From positions 3,744,001 through 3,808,000 of the forward strand of contig CBDCDZ010000004.1 of the NCBI GenBank assembly GCA_965215565.1: a stretch of DNA of 64,000 nucleotides, read 5' to 3'. A program made the position numbers. Each line of letters starts with the position of its first letter. The first letter of the stretch is position 1. This DNA comes from Trueperaceae bacterium (lineage in GTDB: Bacteria > Deinococcota > Deinococci > Deinococcales > Trueperaceae). Shown here in pieces: positions 39,001 to 51,000 of this stretch.

Positions 39001-42000
39001 CCTATCCTCTTGCTGCGCGGCGTCATAGAAACGCCTGTAGTCCTCTAGCGACGCAACGTTTTCGTTTCTAGCGTCCTCATAAGGATTGACGATGTCAGCG
39101 CTGACCTCGGGTACAGGAATCTCCCGAAACCCCCAAGGCTGGCTGAGGGCGATAAGCACTAAGCTCATTATGGTGAGGCTCAAGAGTAAGAGAAGTCGCT
39201 GCCGGGTTAGAAGTACCACACCCTAGTCTACGGAGCCCCTGCGCCTCTATGTTAAGAAAGGCGACAAAATGTGAAATAGTTCAAACGGACGCTTTGCCCC
39301 GAGTTTCGCAGCCCCTTTGGTAGTCTTGTGTCTAGGGTGCTGGGGGGGTAAACTGTGATTCGTAGGTGCGTGGGCCCTTAGCTCAGTTGGTTAGAGCAGT
39401 CGACTCATAATCGATTGGTCGTGGGTTCAAGTCCCCCAGGGCCCATCCCGAAAAAGCGCGTGACACACGCAAAAGGGGCGACCACCCCGAATGGGGTAGT
39501 CGCCCTAAATTCTGAATTACAGTTCAACTACAGCTACAAACTAGCGTCTGATACCCTTTACCCTTTTTACGCGCGAGGTTTCTGAGACGCCCCAACGTAT
39601 CCTCGTCCAGCCGCAGTGAAGTGCTCGTGCTCCGTTTGCAGACGGGGCGCGCGGGGAATTCCTGTGTAGCAGCTTCGTCCATAAGCTCCTCGCTTCAGAC
39701 GTGCGTGCTCCAAAAGTTATGCTCCTGACGTTCGTTCTTAAAAACGGGTAGGTCGTCCTTGCTATAAACGATGGTGAACCCGTCCTCGGTTTTTTCAGGT
39801 CGCTCTGCCATCGTAAAAGTATACACGGCGCTTAGAGGGCAGTTTAACAAGCAGATGCTAAACTGTCCCATGCGCACTGTAAAAGCTCTCATCAACGAGC
39901 ACGGCAAAGTAGAACTTTTAGAGCCCCTCACGCTGAGTGAAGAGCGCCAAGCCCTCGTCACCATCCTCGACACGCCCACTCAAGAGCCGCGCCCCTTCGG
40001 GCTCTGCAAGGGCGAATTCAGCGTGCCAGATGACTTCGACGCGCCTCTACCTGACGACACTCTGGATGACTTCGAGCGTACGTGAGGCTGCTTTTAGTTA
40101 CGCAAATTGATGACCTCAATATTTCCTCTGTACTTTGTCATGTCCCTGTCCACCGTGTAGAGCCGCGTCGCGCCCTTGCTCAGCACCGAGCTGAGGATGA
40201 GCGCGTCCGCCATGCTCAGTCCGTTTCCGTGCGCTAGACGAACCGCCTGGTCAACGATAGGGAGCGCCGTATCATCTAAGAACACCACGTCGTACAGCAG
40301 CGGTATATCGGTGGCTACCTGAAACGCGGCATTTTTGCTCAACATACCCTTCAAGCCGAGCTTCTTCAGCTCGTAAATGCAGACAACGCTTGTCACTAAC
40401 GCATGTTCGCCCTGCGCTGCCTCCTGGGTAAGCTGCCTAACAGTAGGATTCCGCAAGATGAATTCTACGAAGAACCCCGTATCACAGCCGATGGTCACGT
40501 GCGCTTCTGATCTGCTAGTCGCATACGTTCAAGCTCAGCCACGTACTCTTCGGATACCTCCGCGCCCTCGCTCGCCGCAACTATTCGCGAGAGTGCCGCC
40601 TGCCGCTGGCTTATTTTACTGCCTAAAAACTCCACGAAGTTCAGCACCTCTCGCTGACGCTCAGGGGGCAACTCGCGCAACCTCTCCAAAACTGCCTCTT
40701 CGACGCTCATGACACACTCCCTTCTACAATCTTAACCTCTTCCTCCGTCAGCCCATAAAGCTCATACACCAGCGCGTCTATCCGCTCGCCCAGCGCCGCA
40801 ATCTCCCGCGTCACGCGCTCTAACTCCGAGCCCGCCGCACCCGCCTTCTGCTCATGCAGCCCCAACATCTCATCCACCATTTTTGTCATGCAGTCGTGCT
40901 GGTGTTTGTCGGTGGGGTTGGAGAGGTTGAGGGTGCGGATGGGGAGTTGTTCGACGTATTGGGTGAAGAAGCGGAGGTAGCCGCCGCGATAAACAGCGAA
41001 TGCGTTACTGTAGACGAACATCATAAGCGCCGAATTGATGAGGGCGAGAAGATATTTATCGTTGCTCGGAAAAAAGTAAGTGGTGTTGACGGAGTAAAAG
41101 TTACCGCAAGCATCTAGCGTAAAATTCCCTCGAGAACCGATGTCAGGGAAGATAATTTTAGATTTTTCAAAAAGGTTGTAGTAGTCGCAGGGTCTCAGCT
41201 CCCACCAAAACTGACCTTTATCCCCGCGCTTTCTTGCTCGTTCTTCAAAGGGTTTCAAATGTTCCGTGATTGCGGGGTATTGCTGCTGTAACCACGCCCA
41301 CTTATCGCTCGTCTCTCCTGAATTCGCGTTCGTCCAGCCATTTGGAAAGAGAATAAGGTGCTTATCGCTCTGCGGAGGCTGATACCTCTTCACATCCCGC
41401 CCCGCCAAAAACGGTTTAATCACCTCTTCGTTTTTCGGGTCTTCGGCGATGAGCTTGTCTCTGGTGGCTTGGTCGATGACGAAGGCTTCATTAAAACCTG
41501 TTTTGATACCGTAGTAGATTTTCCCGTCTACGTACCTCTCTAACGGCACGCCTGCTTTGTTTATCTTGTTCAAGACCTTTTGCGCGTCCTTGCTGGCTAA
41601 GGACCAGCCGCTACCGTCTAGCTCGGCTTGGGGTTGGGCGTAGGCACGCTGTTTGATGTAGCCGCGCAGGTCGTTGTAGGCTAACTCCTCCATCTTGACG
41701 ATGTTCACCTCTTGGCTGGGCTTGTCTCTGCTTACGAAGAGGATGCAGGGGTAGGTGGTGGCGCTTTCAAAGACGGGTAGGTCGCCGTAGTCGATGATGG
41801 TCATGAGGTCTTGCTTTTTGAGCCATTGGCGCAAGGGCTTGCCGTAGTTCGCCCGCATCCACTTGTTCGCGACGATGTAGGAGAAGACGCCTTTTCTCCT
41901 TAGCAGCTTGACGCCTAGCTCGATGAAGTAGACGAAGAGGTCTGCCGCGCCGTGATACGCCTCGTATTGGGCTTTGAGGTGCGGCTTGAGGTCGCCTAGC

Positions 42001-48000: not shown

Positions 48001-51000
48001 AGATCGTTTCGCGGTATCGTCTTCACGGCGCTACATCCTGTCTGAGAGGTTTGAAGTTTGGCGGCAGCCCCGCGTTGTGCTCTCGACTAGAAGAGTGAAC
48101 ATGCGGCGTCCGTTGGACACGCCCCTAGTAGCGTCAGCATACTTTAGATTGACTTTTGACACGTTGCACGTAAAGTAACATGAGGCTCGCACAGTTAGTG
48201 TGAAAAGTTTCGTGCTTGCCCTCTTACGTGCCTTATCCGAGCAACGCGCTGAGCGGTATAGTGACGGGTAAGCGCTCCAAATAGGCGGGCGTGAGCGAGT
48301 TCATAGAGAAATGCGCAATGAAACGTAGAAACGTGGTATAAGCACCCTTCAAAGTACCACGCTTATTTTGGGGTGCACCCTGCTCTAGTAGGACAAAGCA
48401 AGAAACTTTCTTAACGTCTTGCGAAAAGAAAGCGAAGGGCTCGAATCTTTTTTAGGCTACCATGTTGTTGAGCATAGTTCTCCGAGAGTCTGCGTCTATA
48501 CGAGTTAAGAAGCAATGGGCTAGAGCTTGTGGGTAGAGAGAAACGCTCCCCATACTCCGAAAAACTCGTCATGATAAGTTGTGAACTCTGAATTCGGAGT
48601 CTGTGTGGAGGTGCGTCCTCGAGCCCCCACCCCGTATGATGGATTTATGGAAATCTACACCGAAGCCAACCGCGCCAAGTGGAATAAGCAGGCGGATATC
48701 CACGCCAGAGTGACGCTCGAGGGTCTTTTAGAGCGGGTCAGTGCGCCGGACTTCAGCACCTTTGATGAGGTCGAGCGTGCTGTCTTTGAGAGGATAGGGC
48801 TGGAGGGCAAAGCGGTTGCCCAGCCGAGCTGCAACAACGGGCGTGAACTTATCTCGGTTAAAAAGGCGGGCGCGGGGCGCTGCGTCGGCTTCGACATCTC
48901 GGAGAAGTTCACCGAACAAGGTGAGCGGCTCGCCCAAGCGGGCGGCGTGGACATCGAATTCGTCAGGACGAGCGTCTACGATATCCCGCATGAGTACGAC
49001 GCTCAGTTTGACCTCGTCTACGTGACGATCGGCGCGCTCGGCTGGCTACCCGACATGGCGGCGTATTTCGAGGTGATCGCTCGGCTGCTCAAGCCCGGCG
49101 GAGACCTCTTTTTGTATGAGATGCACCCCATTTTGGACATGTTCGAACCCGAGAAGGGTTTAGAAGTCGTCACCTCGTACTTCACTACCGAGCCCGACGT
49201 CGCGGACGATGAGCCCGACTACTACGATCCGTCGCAGATCGTCGCCGGGACCTCTTACTGGTTTCACCACAAGCTCTCGGACATCATCGGGAACTGCTTG
49301 CGAAGCGGGCTCAACCTCACCTCGTTCGAGGAGTATCCGCACGACCTCTCGGAGGTGTATAGGTCCTTCGAGGCGTTCGGGGCGAAGCCGCCGCTGTCGT
49401 ACTCGCTCACGGCGCGAAAAGGGGCGCAGAAGAGGGTGTAGAGGAGAGAGGTTAGCGGCGCAGGCGCTTCGTCACTTGCGCCATCTCCGGTAGACCCAAA
49501 TGGAGACTAAAGAGAACGTAGAACCCGCCTAAAACGCTCACACCGACGGTAGCGCGCAGAAGGTAGTCGAACCAGCCTGAGGGCGGCGGAAGTTGTCCGA
49601 GCGCGAGCAGCGTGAGCCCCGCCGCCCCGAGCGCCGCGAGCCAGACGCGGCGCGCGTGGCTCAAGAGGTTGAATAGAGAGAACCGCTCGCGCCGCCACAC
49701 GTAAAAGGTGAGCACCGCGAGTTGCGTCCACTCGACGAGCACGGTAGACCAGCTCAGCCCTACGATGCCGTAGCGCGGCGCGAGTAGCGTGTAGAGCAGC
49801 GCGTTGAGCGAGATGAAGAGGACGCTGATGACGATGGGCGTCACTATCTCGCGGCGCACGTAAAAGGTGCGAATCAAGAGGTTGCGTAAGCCGATAGGGA
49901 AGACTGCCAAGCCCAAAGGCGCGAGTGCGGTGACAGAAAGGCTGAGCACTTGCGGGTTCATCCCGGCACCCGGATGAAACGCGGAGAGCCAGTTGAGCAC
50001 GCTCTGAACCGCAGGCGCGGCGAGGAAGCAGAGAATGAGCCCGGCGGGGACGGTCAAAAAGGTGATGAGGCGCAAGCCCTCTAGGAGCGTCTCAGAAAAC
50101 CTCTCCGGCTCCTCTTTGGCGTTCGCGGAGAGCCTCGAGTAATACGCCAGCGCCGGCGAGATGCTAAAGAGCCCAAGCGCTAAGCCTAAAAAGAGGTTCG
50201 CGTTTTCGAACGCCGTCACGCTGCCCCGGGGCAAGCCGCTCAGCACGTTCGTCGCGACTACGTTAAGAAATTGCCGCGCCCCCGTCGTAAAGGTGAAAGG
50301 AACCATCAAAACGAGGACGCCGCCCAGCGCCGGATGCCACCAGCGCCCGATGCGGGGCAAGAGGTTGTGTCTGACGAGCGCCGGGATTTGGAAGAGCAGT
50401 TGCGCCAAGCCGCCTAAGACGAACGCCACCGCGAGCGGCACCGCTTGACCCGGATAGAGGAGCATCAGCGCCGCCGTGACCACGTTGAGCGCCACCGGAG
50501 CCCAGGCGGGCGCGAAGAAACGCTCCTCAGCTTGGAGAATCCCCATCGCCAGCGCGGAGAAAGAGATGGCCGCTAGAAAAGGAAAAACAGTGCGCGTGAG
50601 CTTGAGCGTGAGCGCGTAATCCACGTTCGCGTTGTCTTGGAGGAGCAGCCCGACGATCCAAGGCGCAGCCCAGACCGCGAGCAGCACGAGCAGCGTGTTG
50701 ACGAGAAAGAGCAGGCTGAGCAGCGCGCCCGAAAGCCCCTTCGCGTCCTCCTCTTCCAAACCCTTATAGACGGGCACGAACGAGTTCGTCAGCGCGCCCT
50801 CGGCGAGCAGTTCGCGAAAGAGGTTGGGGACTTTCAGGGCGACGTTTAGGGCGTCTGTGACGGCGGGCGCGTAAAGCTGGTTGAAGAGCGCGGTGCGTAA
50901 AAGCCCCGTGACGCGGCTGCCGAGCGTGCCGCCCATGAGGATCAGCGCGCCCCTCGAGGCGCTCTGACGCGGCTCAGGGGCTTTCGGTACAGGGTTGGGC

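What a model noticed while it worked through the whole genome (the two positions that open the first line are those of the whole stretch)
40707..48026. Type IIG restriction-methylase with an IS200-type HUH (Y1) domain inserted inside its methylase fold
g03642 (1319 aa) is a MmeI/Eco57I-like type IIG restriction-modification enzyme whose adenine methylase domain is split (Pfam Eco57I positions 2-76 at residues 557-665, positions 70-171 at residues 870-966) by an insert of about 200 residues that is a complete Y1/HUH single-strand DNA nuclease domain (Y1_Tnp, residues 707-811) with its two-histidine and tyrosine motifs kept. It is co-oriented with g03643, a PLD-nuclease/SNF2 helicase. At least 170 proteins from many phyla share the same nested build, so this is an undescribed, conserved class of restriction or defence enzyme carrying a domesticated transposase domain.
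Evidence so far: pfam.tsv rows. PADLOC type IIG model PDLC03596 matches residues 2-676 to profile 3-709 and a second stretch from about residue 870, so the reference family lacks the insert. A search with residues 640-900 found 171 proteins of 725-2309 aa at E 1e-3 or better; all 120 listed carry PF01797 with methylase domains; named sources include Bacteroidota, Balneolaceae, Brachyspira, Anaerolineae. An alignment of 15 shows invariant blocks of the HUH fold flanked by methylase motif IV. Model of residues 530-1000 from 28 sequences (mean pLDDT 73, insert core 85-95): Foldseek finds both parts apart, adenine methylases CamA, M.BseCI, TaqI, BrxX (E 4e-9 to 9e-6) and the IS200/IS605 transposase of ISDra2 (2x [...]
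(Added by a program. Inside this text positions count along the whole contig: contig position 3,744,001 is position 1 of the stretch shown here. "Call 12" and the like, gene names such as g00115 and contig names such as C1 are that model's own, and its searches are not shown. The text may have been shortened before it was handed on; [...] marks where a part breaks off. The agent that wrote the report below was given it as the finding of a first reader that could run no searches.)

Follow-up and report, generated by a model that had tools for sequence, protein, structure and literature searches.

The report
Hairpin transposase lodged inside restriction-methylase gene
A restriction-modification type gene carries, in frame inside its methylase domain, a complete hairpin-cutting (REP-transposase-like) enzyme together with that enzyme's own DNA hairpins, which are also scattered about ninety times over the genome, and I found no paper that describes this arrangement.

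Summary
ORF 40707-44666(-) encodes 1319 aa. Its Eco57I-type adenine methylase is split by a complete Y1/HUH domain just before motif IV.

The insert is not a bare domain. It brings a DNA hairpin, CAAGGGGYTNNARCCCCTTG, read in frame as NKGL(Q/K)PLV. Three copies lie in the gene, one in the upstream spacer, and 95 in the genome against 0 for the reversed control.

The same HUH clade also occurs as stand-alone, hairpin-flanked ORFs, for example between nuoD and nuoE in a related genus. Nested and stand-alone forms interleave on the tree. The catalytic His, His, Tyr and Asn are near-invariant in both.

The nearest allele, P0198, is 92-100% identical over most flanking 50-residue windows but lacks the insert. 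The HUH arrived inside a recombined methylase/specificity cassette.

The PLD-SNF2 neighbour belongs to the host family, not to the insert.

Best reading: a RAYT-like "REPtron" lodged in a two-gene restriction-like module. This is a new variant of known kinds. My paper searches found no description of it. Earlier notes of this scan describe the same nesting on other genomes.

The parts
40707..44666 (-). Type IIG-like gene (P0001, 1319 aa). Order of parts: restriction-endonuclease-like N domain, helical spacer, gamma-class N6-adenine methylase split by the HUH insert, TaqI_C-type specificity domain.
   Evidence: The N-terminal model matches the DrdV N domain (Z 6.1) and the MmeI spacer (Z 7.1) only moderately.
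42051..42644 (-). In-frame insert, residues about 675-872: HUH/Y1 domain plus a hairpin-bearing linker. It lies between FSEVF and GGFDIVIGNPPY.
   Evidence: Absent from P0198 at exactly this place. Pfam Y1_Tnp 707-811. Model pLDDT 89.3. Foldseek finds Y1 transposases.
42420..42428 (-). HUH motif, His747-Val-His749.
   Evidence: H747 is kept in 93/94 and H749 in 94/94 nested homologs.
42231..42245 (-). Catalytic Tyr808 and Asn812 (Y-x-x-x-N).
   Evidence: Y 94/94 and N 94/94 in nested homologs; Y 78/78 and N 76/78 in stand-alone ones. PMC6006769 names N119 of E. coli TnpA-REP against Q131 of IS608 as the essential residue at this place.
42185..42204 (.). Hairpin copy directly after the HUH domain, read as NKGLKPLV. 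Its 20 nt equal the commonest genome-wide form.
42122..42141 (.). Second hairpin copy in the linker, read as NKGLQPLA.
42054..42132 (.). 12-nt tandem repeats of half a hairpin, read as (QPLA)n.
   Evidence: family D1.
43397..43416 (.). Third in-frame hairpin, at residues 417-424 (NKGLKPFA). It sits in a patch where P0001 differs from the otherwise about 98% identical P0198.
44713..44732 (.). Hairpin copy, plus an extra half copy, in the spacer between the two genes.
40917..42866 (-). Recombined cassette, residues about 601-1250: helical insert, HUH, C-terminal half of the methylase and the specificity domain. It is P0003-like, whereas the flanks are P0198-like.
   Evidence: Sliding identity; pairwise alignment.
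42015..42026 (-). Methylase motif IV, NPPY (881-884).
43116..43136 (-). Methylase motif I, DPAIGSG (511-517).
44754..48026 (-). Partner gene (P0002, 1090 aa): N-terminal PLD/HKD nuclease fused to an SNF2 helicase.
   Evidence: (PADLOC C3a139 'HKD+Snf2', 187.6 bits). A 61% homolog lies directly upstream of the insert-free IIG homolog in G005.
39371..39448 (+). tRNA-Met at the edge of the strain-specific island that holds the module.
   Evidence: Two runs carrying the same species label hold next to none of the locus's words.
1062..1081 (.). Copy of the dispersed hairpin outside the gene, within a copy of the roughly 120-nt repeat.
31109..31128 (.). Further dispersed hairpin copy (1 mismatch).

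Best explanation
The locus is a two-gene restriction-like defence module. One gene encodes a PLD/HKD-SNF2 helicase-nuclease. The other encodes a type IIG-like protein with a nuclease-like N domain, an N6-adenine methylase and a specificity domain.

The methylase gene hosts a lodger. This is a RAYT/IS200-like Y1 HUH single-strand DNA nuclease-ligase, translated in frame in a surface loop just before motif IV, together with its cognate GC-rich DNA hairpins. These hairpins behave like REP elements.

Shown: the anatomy; the hairpins and their compensatory changes; their genome-wide spread in this genome; the stand-alone relatives; the insert-free near-identical allele; and the recombination mosaic.

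Inferred: the HUH part is still catalytically active and binds and cuts these hairpins in single-stranded DNA, as RAYTs do with REPs. It is made only as part of the host protein. The host enzyme methylates, and together with the PLD-SNF2 partner restricts, without needing the insert. The cassette spreads mainly by horizontal transfer and by homologous exchange of methylase/specificity cassettes between type IIG genes. It occasionally leaves stand-alone hairpin-HUH-hairpin units, by host-gene decay or by transposition.
For: Hairpins:
- The 20-mer occurs 6 times in the window against 0.01 expected. Four of the six lie within 2.6 kb at this gene.
- The genome has 95 sites (18-mer, 1 mismatch or fewer) against 0 for the reversed control.
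- Only 19 of 95 sites lie in open frames of 150 aa or more, against 832 of 1000 random places. Three of the 5 sites in frames of 400 aa or more are in this gene.
- On 18 distinct copies from the window and 9 loci, 92.6% of cells pair against 86.6% in shuffles (0/500 reach it). There are 15 double-change cells against 6.0 (0/500). Slid controls give 37-65%.
- In the stand-alone locus L002 the downstream hairpin lies outside the ORF, so DNA and not peptide is conserved.
- The peptide form KG[LFV][QK]P[LFI] occurs 76 times in 94 nested proteins and 0 times in 118 insert-free relatives.

HUH domain:
- H747 93/94, H749 94/94, Y808 94/94 and N812 94/94 in nested forms, and the same in stand-alone forms.
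- The best NCBIfam match is REP_Tyr_transpos.
- The fold matches Y1 transposases only.

Lodger status:
- P0198 lacks the insert but is 92-100% identical in 11 of the 12 windows of residues 1-600 (72% in the hairpin-bearing one) and 90-100% in 1251-1319.
- 118 of 120 listed host-family relatives lack PF01797.
- Nested and stand-alone states interleave: 32 changes on the tree, and at least 8 forced by well-supported branches.
- Some short forms keep type IIG remnants.

Partner: it is conserved with an insert-free homolog in G005.

Co-occurrence in the phylum sample: the HUH clade is in 3 of 364 genomes. All 3 are among the 13 that hold the hairpin, and they include the two highest counts, 74 and 32.
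Against: - No activity data exist for any member.
- Ten of the 13 hairpin-bearing genomes have no detectable HUH of this clade, including both genomes of the same genus (24 copies each). The spread may therefore predate this cassette or depend on another enzyme.
- In five MAGs of other phyla that carry a relative of the HUH (three nested in a methylase gene, two apparently stand-alone), the hairpin has only 5, 1, 1, 1 and 0 copies. Genome-wide spread is not a general trait.
- 44 of the 95 sites sit in a roughly 120-nt element with terminal inverted repeats, a build that a DDE transposase could also move.
- No orientation bias of these elements relative to the (weak) GC skew was seen.
- The insert scores below the curated cut-offs of both NCBIfam models: 58.2 against 80, and 51 against 55.
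- The arrangement keeps the same loop and intact motifs on both sides across 30-70% HUH identity. This could also mean that the fusion itself is selected.
- Kin genomes are not independent samples.
Confidence: 0.6

Rival explanations
1. Integrated function. The HUH domain has been recruited into the defence enzyme. It senses, tethers to or cuts single-stranded hairpin DNA, for example replication or rolling-circle intermediates or the host's own REP-like tags. This gates methylation or restriction.
For: The nesting is always at the same loop next to the catalytic NPPY, with both sets of motifs intact over deep divergence. About 4 in 10 of the clade's best 150 representatives are nested. The HUH travels together with the specificity domain in the recombined cassette.
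Against: The near-identical allele and 118 of 120 host relatives lack the insert. The same HUH lives alone with its hairpins. The partner gene and the host N-terminal domain do not change with the insert. Hairpins inside the gene itself fit a mobile element's footprint better than a sensor's.
Confidence: 0.2
2. Homing-type element. The hairpin-HUH unit inserts itself, through single-stranded DNA, specifically next to the conserved motif IV coding sequence of gamma-class methylase genes. It would be a non-splicing, DNA-level analogue of an intein.
For: The insertion point is the same in at least two type IIG host families with unrelated N-terminal parts: PDLC03596-like here, and MmeI_N/MmeI_hel or HSDR_N types. 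Nested and stand-alone forms interleave.
Against: The one event that can be traced here is a homologous cassette exchange, not a clean insertion. No empty-site/filled-site pair with a precise junction was found. Several short forms look like decayed nested genes, so the direction may be mostly from nested to stand-alone.
Confidence: 0.12
3. Exapted inactive domain. The HUH fold serves only as a structural, dimerising or DNA-binding module and no longer cuts DNA.
For: No own start or stop codon. It scores below the curated family cut-offs.
Against: The catalytic His-x-His, Tyr and Asn are kept in 93-94 of 94 nested proteins. Cognate hairpins are still maintained with compensatory changes.
Confidence: 0.06
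4. Artefact. A chance open frame across an IS200 insertion, or an assembly chimera.
For: None found.
Against: The frame is 1319 codons without a stop. Contigs of two runs of the source sample tile the region without differences, and one piece spans 41841-43475. There are dozens of homologs with the same build.
Confidence: 0.01

Closest known systems
REPtron: RAYT / TnpA-REP gene with flanking REP/REPIN hairpins (E. coli TnpA-REP, PDB 4er8; described in PMC6006769 and PMC5581495, passages read)
   Same: Single-copy Y1 HUH enzyme with a Y-x-x-x-N motif. GC-rich hairpins of about 20 nt lie next to the gene and are dispersed, mostly extragenic, over the genome. NCBIfam's best match is REP_Tyr_transpos. 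The fold matches 4er8 (E 2.3e-6).
   Different: It has no gene of its own: it is translated inside a methylase domain. Its hairpins are read in frame as peptide. It scores below the curated cut-off (58.2 against 80). No guide tetranucleotide at the hairpin foot was established. In other phyla the hairpin is not dispersed. The clade is carried horizontally by restriction genes, whereas RAYTs are described as vertically inherited (PMC5581495 abstract).
IS200/IS605 TnpA (ISDra2 2xm3, IS608 2a6m/2vjv)
   Same: Closest solved relatives by sequence profile (E 1e-8) and by fold (E 3e-7). Stand-alone units of about 575 bp bounded by two hairpins (L002) look like a minimal IS.
   Different: Y-x-x-x-N, not Y-x-x-x-Q. 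One copy per genome. No TnpB. Below the curated cut-off (51 against 55).
Type IIG/IIL restriction-modification enzymes (MmeI 5hr4, DrdV 7lo5, BpuSI 3s1s; Pfam Eco57I family)
   Same: Same domain order: nuclease-like N domain, helical spacer, gamma-class N6A methylase, TaqI_C-type specificity domain. PADLOC REase_MTase_IIG scores 893.6 bits.
   Different: The methylase fold is interrupted by about 200 residues. The canonical (D/E)xK lysine is not conserved in this host family. A PLD-SNF2 partner gene is conserved, so it is probably not a single-polypeptide system.
Type-2 BREX-related (BR) systems and class 1 DISARM (PMC12839542, passages read; DISARM recalled)
   Same: An HKD/PLD nuclease fused N-terminally to an SNF2 helicase works beside an N6-adenine methylase. 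NCBIfam/PADLOC give DrmD 130-156 bits and PglX/DrmMI partial matches.
   Different: No DUF499 ATPase, DUF3780, DrmA or DrmB ORF in the island. Only two genes.
Rickettsia palindromic elements inserted in frame in protein genes; inteins (both recalled; PMC1779305 seen only in a search listing)
   Same: Selfish DNA tolerated inside coding sequence because the frame and the fold survive.
   Different: Here the palindromes accompany the enzyme that presumably acts on them. Nothing is spliced out.

Membership tests
RAYT / REPtron | Y1 HUH core with His-u-His, a single catalytic Tyr and Asn four residues on | tested here: met
   HVH 747-749 and Y808..N812; near-invariant in 94 nested and 78 stand-alone homologs.
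RAYT / REPtron | Gene flanked by its REP hairpins | tested here: met
   Hairpins lie 39 and 104 nt after the Tyr codon, 1.2 kb upstream in the gene, and in the 5' spacer. The stand-alone L002 is flanked on both sides.
RAYT / REPtron | The same hairpin dispersed in many, mostly extragenic copies in the host genome | tested here: met
   95 sites in G000 against 0 for the control; 76 of 95 lie outside frames of 150 aa or more. This is not general: 0-5 copies in five MAGs of other phyla.
RAYT / REPtron | Guide/GTAG-type tetranucleotide at the foot of the hairpin | tested here: inconclusive
   GTAG occurs only at the ends of the roughly 120-nt element, about 38 nt from the hairpin. Nothing conserved was found at the foot beyond the extended palindrome.
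RAYT / REPtron | Score at or above NCBIfam NF047646's curated cut-off | tested here: not met
   58.2 bits against 80.
IS200/IS605 TnpA | Y-x-x-x-Q motif, multi-copy IS with LE/RE, curated cut-off of NF033573 | tested here: not met
   Asn in place of Gln. One copy of this clade in the genome. 51 bits against 55.
Type IIG restriction-modification enzyme | Gamma-class N6A methylase motifs (I ... IV NPPY) plus a C-terminal specificity domain in one chain | tested here: met
Type IIG restriction-modification enzyme | N-terminal PD-(D/E)xK nuclease with catalytic residues | tested here: inconclusive
   D66 is kept in 116/121 and D73 in 119/121, but no Lys at 90% or more. Foldseek found nothing at E 0.001 or better. 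VIA-align: DrdV N domain Z 6.1, BpuSI Z 4.4, other endonuclease-like folds Z 4.5-4.9.
Type IIG restriction-modification enzyme | Acts as a single polypeptide | not testable with these tools
   A conserved PLD-SNF2 partner in G000 and G005 argues for a two-component system.
Type-2 BR system / DISARM | DUF499 ATPase and DUF3780 (BR), or DrmA and DrmB (DISARM), in the locus | tested here: not met
   The island between tRNA-Met and the small-molecule methyltransferase/MurJ genes holds only a VapB-like ORF, a PIN ORF and the two genes.

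The most novel reading that the evidence does not exclude
The fusion is functional. 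By carrying a hairpin-specific single-strand DNA nuclease-ligase beside its catalytic loop, the methylase/specificity protein couples recognition of REP-like hairpins to methylation or to PLD-SNF2-driven restriction. The recognised hairpins could be the chromosome's own tags, or extruded or single-stranded invader DNA. A genome's dispersed palindromes would then be part of self/non-self discrimination or of control of the enzyme.
Probability: 0.15. Interest if true: 0.9.

Novelty: new variant of a known kind. Interest (0 to 1): 0.65.

Why it matters
RAYTs and REPs are a long-standing puzzle. It is unclear what maintains a single-copy, apparently domesticated transposase and its repeats.

Here a RAYT-like enzyme has no gene of its own. 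It is expressed only as part of a horizontally mobile restriction-type gene, and its hairpins are written into that gene's coding sequence. That suggests a vehicle for the spread of REP-like systems between phyla. It also suggests a way for selfish DNA to hide in a gene that may be hard to lose.

This genome is a good test bed. It is essentially complete, it has about 95 hairpin copies, and a natural insert-free allele exists for comparison. Both lodger-versus-function and hairpin cleavage are therefore directly testable. For annotation, such genes should not be called 'transposase' or split.

Tried and rejected
- Orientation of the 44 long-arm repeat copies against replication direction. The GC skew of the chromosome is weak, and the counts (15/10 and 11/8) show no bias. 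Uninformative.
- Empty-site comparison for the stand-alone unit in L002. The nuoD-nuoE spacers of G000 and G018 do not align, so no precise junction could be defined.
- DNA comparison of the hairpin-bearing patch at residue 418 with L016. A same-length replacement with no resolvable indel.
- Sequencing runs. No RNA holder is listed. The laid runs are contigs, which cannot show rare excision products. The many 'joints' at 85% likeness have short sides and look like other organisms or paralogs. No excision variant was seen, and none could have been.
- Direct repeat of the tRNA-Met end as an island border. None was found among the repeat families of 39300-48700.
- Foldseek of the N-terminal 340 residues. 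No match at E 0.001 or better.
- Natural experiment in the genus. G001 and G002 lack the orthologous gene; G001 has only C-terminal remnants.
- Scans of genome contigs and metagenome contigs with the single protein gave only 8 loci each, too few for a context census.
- Rejected: the idea that the PLD-SNF2 partner is linked to the insert.
- Rejected: the idea that the second PF01797-like ORF, between mutS and mutL, uses these hairpins. None lies within 1.5 kb of it.

Full report
**Observation.** The window holds one open frame of 1319 codons at 40707-44666(-) and, 87 nt upstream, one of 1090 codons at 44754-48026(-). Pfam reads the first as an Eco57I-type methylase in two stretches (the second covers residues 870-966 and profile positions 70-171). 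It also finds Y1_Tnp at 707-811 (49.4 bits, cut-off 23), N6_Mtase, MmeI_Mtase and a TaqI_C specificity domain. PADLOC's type IIG model PDLC03596 covers residues 2-677 as profile 2-709 and resumes after the insert. Motif I (DPAIGSG, 511), FSEVF (670), HVH (747-749), Tyr808 and NPPY (881) are all present. A model of the insert alone is confident (pLDDT 89.3, pTM 0.80). Its 24 listed Foldseek matches at E 6.9e-5 or better are all Y1 HUH transposases: ISDra2 at 3e-7, TnpA-REP 4er8 at 2.3e-6, and IS608.

Homologs share a peptide, NKGLQPLV, at the C-terminal edge of the HUH domain and at other loops. In the window the three copies are encoded by perfect palindromes: AACAAGGGGTTGAAACCCCTTGTT, CAAGGGGCTTCAGCCCCTTG and a one-mismatch copy. 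The pattern CAAGGGGYTNNARCCCCTTG occurs 6 times in the window against 0.01 expected. Four of the six lie at this locus: three in the gene and one in the spacer before it. A run of 12-nt half-hairpin repeats follows the second copy.

On 18 distinct copies from the window and nine other loci, 92.6% of cells pair against 86.6% in shuffles (0 of 500 reach it). There are 15 double-change cells against 6.0, and slid controls give 37-65%. In the stand-alone relative L002 the downstream hairpin lies outside the ORF, in another frame. The thing conserved is therefore DNA structure, not peptide. The peptide form occurs 76 times in 94 nested proteins and never in 118 insert-free relatives of the host family. 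It is not universal: a copy lies within 70 residues after the Tyr in only 38 of 94 nested proteins.

**Genome-wide.** The genome (4.49 Mb, 99.99% complete) has 95 hairpin sites against 0 for the reversed pattern. They are extragenic in the manner of REPs: 19 of 95 lie in open frames of 150 aa or more, against 832 of 1000 random places. Three of the five sites in frames of 400 aa or more are those in this gene. Forty-four of the 95 sit at the centre of an element of about 120 nt whose ends are inverted repeats, GGTAGTGG...CCACTACC.

The only other PF01797-like ORF of the genome lies between mutS and mutL, is distant in sequence, and has no such hairpin within 1.5 kb.

Across 364 genomes of the phylum, the HUH clade is in 3 (G000, G014, G018) and the hairpin is in 13, all of one family. 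All three HUH genomes are among the 13, and they hold the two highest counts, 74 and 32. Against a simple causal reading, ten hairpin-bearing genomes show no HUH of this clade, including both congeners (24 copies each). In addition, five MAGs of other phyla that carry a relative of the HUH (three nested in a methylase gene, two apparently stand-alone) hold only 5, 1, 1, 1 and 0 copies. Kin are not independent samples.

**The HUH clade.** A length-unbiased search of 1.84 billion representatives gave 461 hits at E 1e-3 or better, 272 at 1e-10 and 46 at 1e-30. Of the best 150:
- 55 have NPP[YFW] within 130 residues after the HUH;
- 9 are long but truncated or carry a decayed motif IV;
- 84 are short (under 300 aa) without it;
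- 2 are other.

Of the 78 short proteins used for the tree, 75 start with Met a few residues before the domain. One verified case is a 185-aa ORF between nuoD and nuoE in G018. It is flanked by two hairpins that bound about 576 bp. A quick maximum-likelihood tree of 174 domains interleaves the two states: 32 changes, with at least 8 forced by well-supported branches (the careful search was not finished; rows with incomplete domains were dropped beforehand). Some short forms keep type IIG remnants, either the C-terminal LYGLTEEEI.VEG tail or a decayed GGFDVVIGSSPY. Decay of nested genes is thus one source of stand-alone forms.

The catalytic residues are near-invariant in both states: H747 93/94 and 78/78, H749 94/94 and 77/78, Y808 94/94 and 78/78, N812 94/94 and 76/78. 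The Asn is the RAYT-type residue according to PMC6006769, which names N119 of E. coli TnpA-REP against Q131 of IS608 (passage). NCBIfam's best match is REP_Tyr_transpos (58.2 bits), ahead of IS200 (51). Both are below their curated cut-offs. By sequence profile the nearest solved proteins are IS200/IS605 transposases.

**The host and its partner.** The closest relative of residues 1-660, P0198 (1146 aa), has no PF01797. Of the 120 relatives listed, only P0004 and P0008 have it. Against P0198, identity in 50-residue windows is:
- 92-100% over residues 1-600, except 72% in the window holding the hairpin patch;
- 16-51% over residues 601-1250;
- 90-100% at the end.
The central part is instead 42-90% identical to P0003.

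The HUH therefore reached this gene inside a recombined cassette made of the helical insert, the HUH, the second half of the methylase and the specificity domain. It did not arrive by a clean insertion.

The PLD-SNF2 partner (PADLOC 'HKD+Snf2', DrmD-like) has a 61% homolog directly upstream of a 52%, insert-free homolog of the methylase gene in G005. It was not found in G041, G043 or G044, and only weakly in G042. It therefore belongs to the host family.

The N-terminal 340 residues model well (pLDDT 84.4). They match the N-terminal domain of DrdV (Z 6.1), the spacer of MmeI (Z 7.1) and several endonuclease-like folds (Z 4.4-4.9), but only moderately. Foldseek found nothing. The family keeps D66 and D73 but no Lys at 90% or more. 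Whether this domain cuts DNA is open.

The island lies beside tRNA-Met and holds only a VapB-like ORF, a PIN ORF and the two genes. Two runs with the same species label hold next to none of its words.

**Mechanism.** Most likely (about 0.6) this is a RAYT-like 'REPtron' living as a lodger in the methylase gene of a two-gene restriction-like module. The HUH part, made only as part of the host protein, would bind and cut its hairpins in single-stranded DNA, which would account for their copies in and around the gene and, in this lineage, over the chromosome. The host enzyme works without it.

The rivals are an integrated defence function (0.2), a homing-type element aimed at the motif IV region (0.12), an inactive exapted domain (0.06) and an artefact (0.01).

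**Literature and earlier notes.** Five full-text searches found no description of a HUH/RAYT module inside a restriction or methylase gene, nor did passages of PMC6006769, PMC5581495 and PMC12839542. [quoted passage not shown] Supplements were not read.

Earlier AI notes of this scan describe the same nesting on at least eight other genomes, and a stand-alone unit of about 580 bp on another. I read them after reaching the same reading. They are not independent evidence.

What this window adds:
- a complete genome with genome-wide spread of the hairpin;
- a near-identical insert-free allele and the recombination mosaic;
- a second host family with a PLD-SNF2 partner;
- a phylum-wide co-occurrence count that includes its misses.

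Noticed in passing
window 998-1122 and 43 other places of the genome (e.g. G000:C4:3266110): A dispersed element of about 120 nt with terminal inverted repeats GGTAGTGG...CCACTACC and the GGGGTT hairpin at its centre. 44 of the 95 hairpin sites have its long arm. What moves it is unknown.
   Followed up: partly
G000:C4:3590071-3590235 (outside the window): A second, distant RAYT-like ORF of 188 aa (HIH and Y..N motifs) between mutS and mutL, without the GGGG hairpin within 1.5 kb.
   Followed up: partly
window 42054-42132: Five or six tandem 12-nt copies of half a hairpin (GAGCAAGGGGCT), translated as QPLAQPLAQPLA. They suggest slippage or aborted events at the hairpin.
   Followed up: no
L016 6299-11857: In the closest HUH-bearing relative, one 1853-codon frame joins the SNF2 helicase (without its PLD domain) to the methylase gene lacking its first roughly 290 residues. 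It looks like a deletion fusion of the two genes.
   Followed up: no
window 39371-40498: tRNA-Met followed by a VapB-like ORF (+) and a PIN-domain ORF (-), convergent, at the edge of the island. No integrase and no repeat of the tRNA end was seen.
   Followed up: partly
G001:C1:1255475-1256568: Two remnants, 76-81% identical to the last roughly 75 residues of the P0198-type gene, in a genome of the same genus that lacks the gene. One has three stop codons.
   Followed up: no
protein P0038 (and relatives P0035-P0049): A more distant nested subgroup carries a different repeated peptide (ATRGHAPLTLP, three times) inside the HUH domain. It may be another in-frame palindrome family; the DNA was not seen.
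   Followed up: no
window 43374-43433: The hairpin at residues 417-424 replaces a same-length patch in a region otherwise about 98% identical to P0198. This is a recent local change of unknown mechanism.
   Followed up: partly
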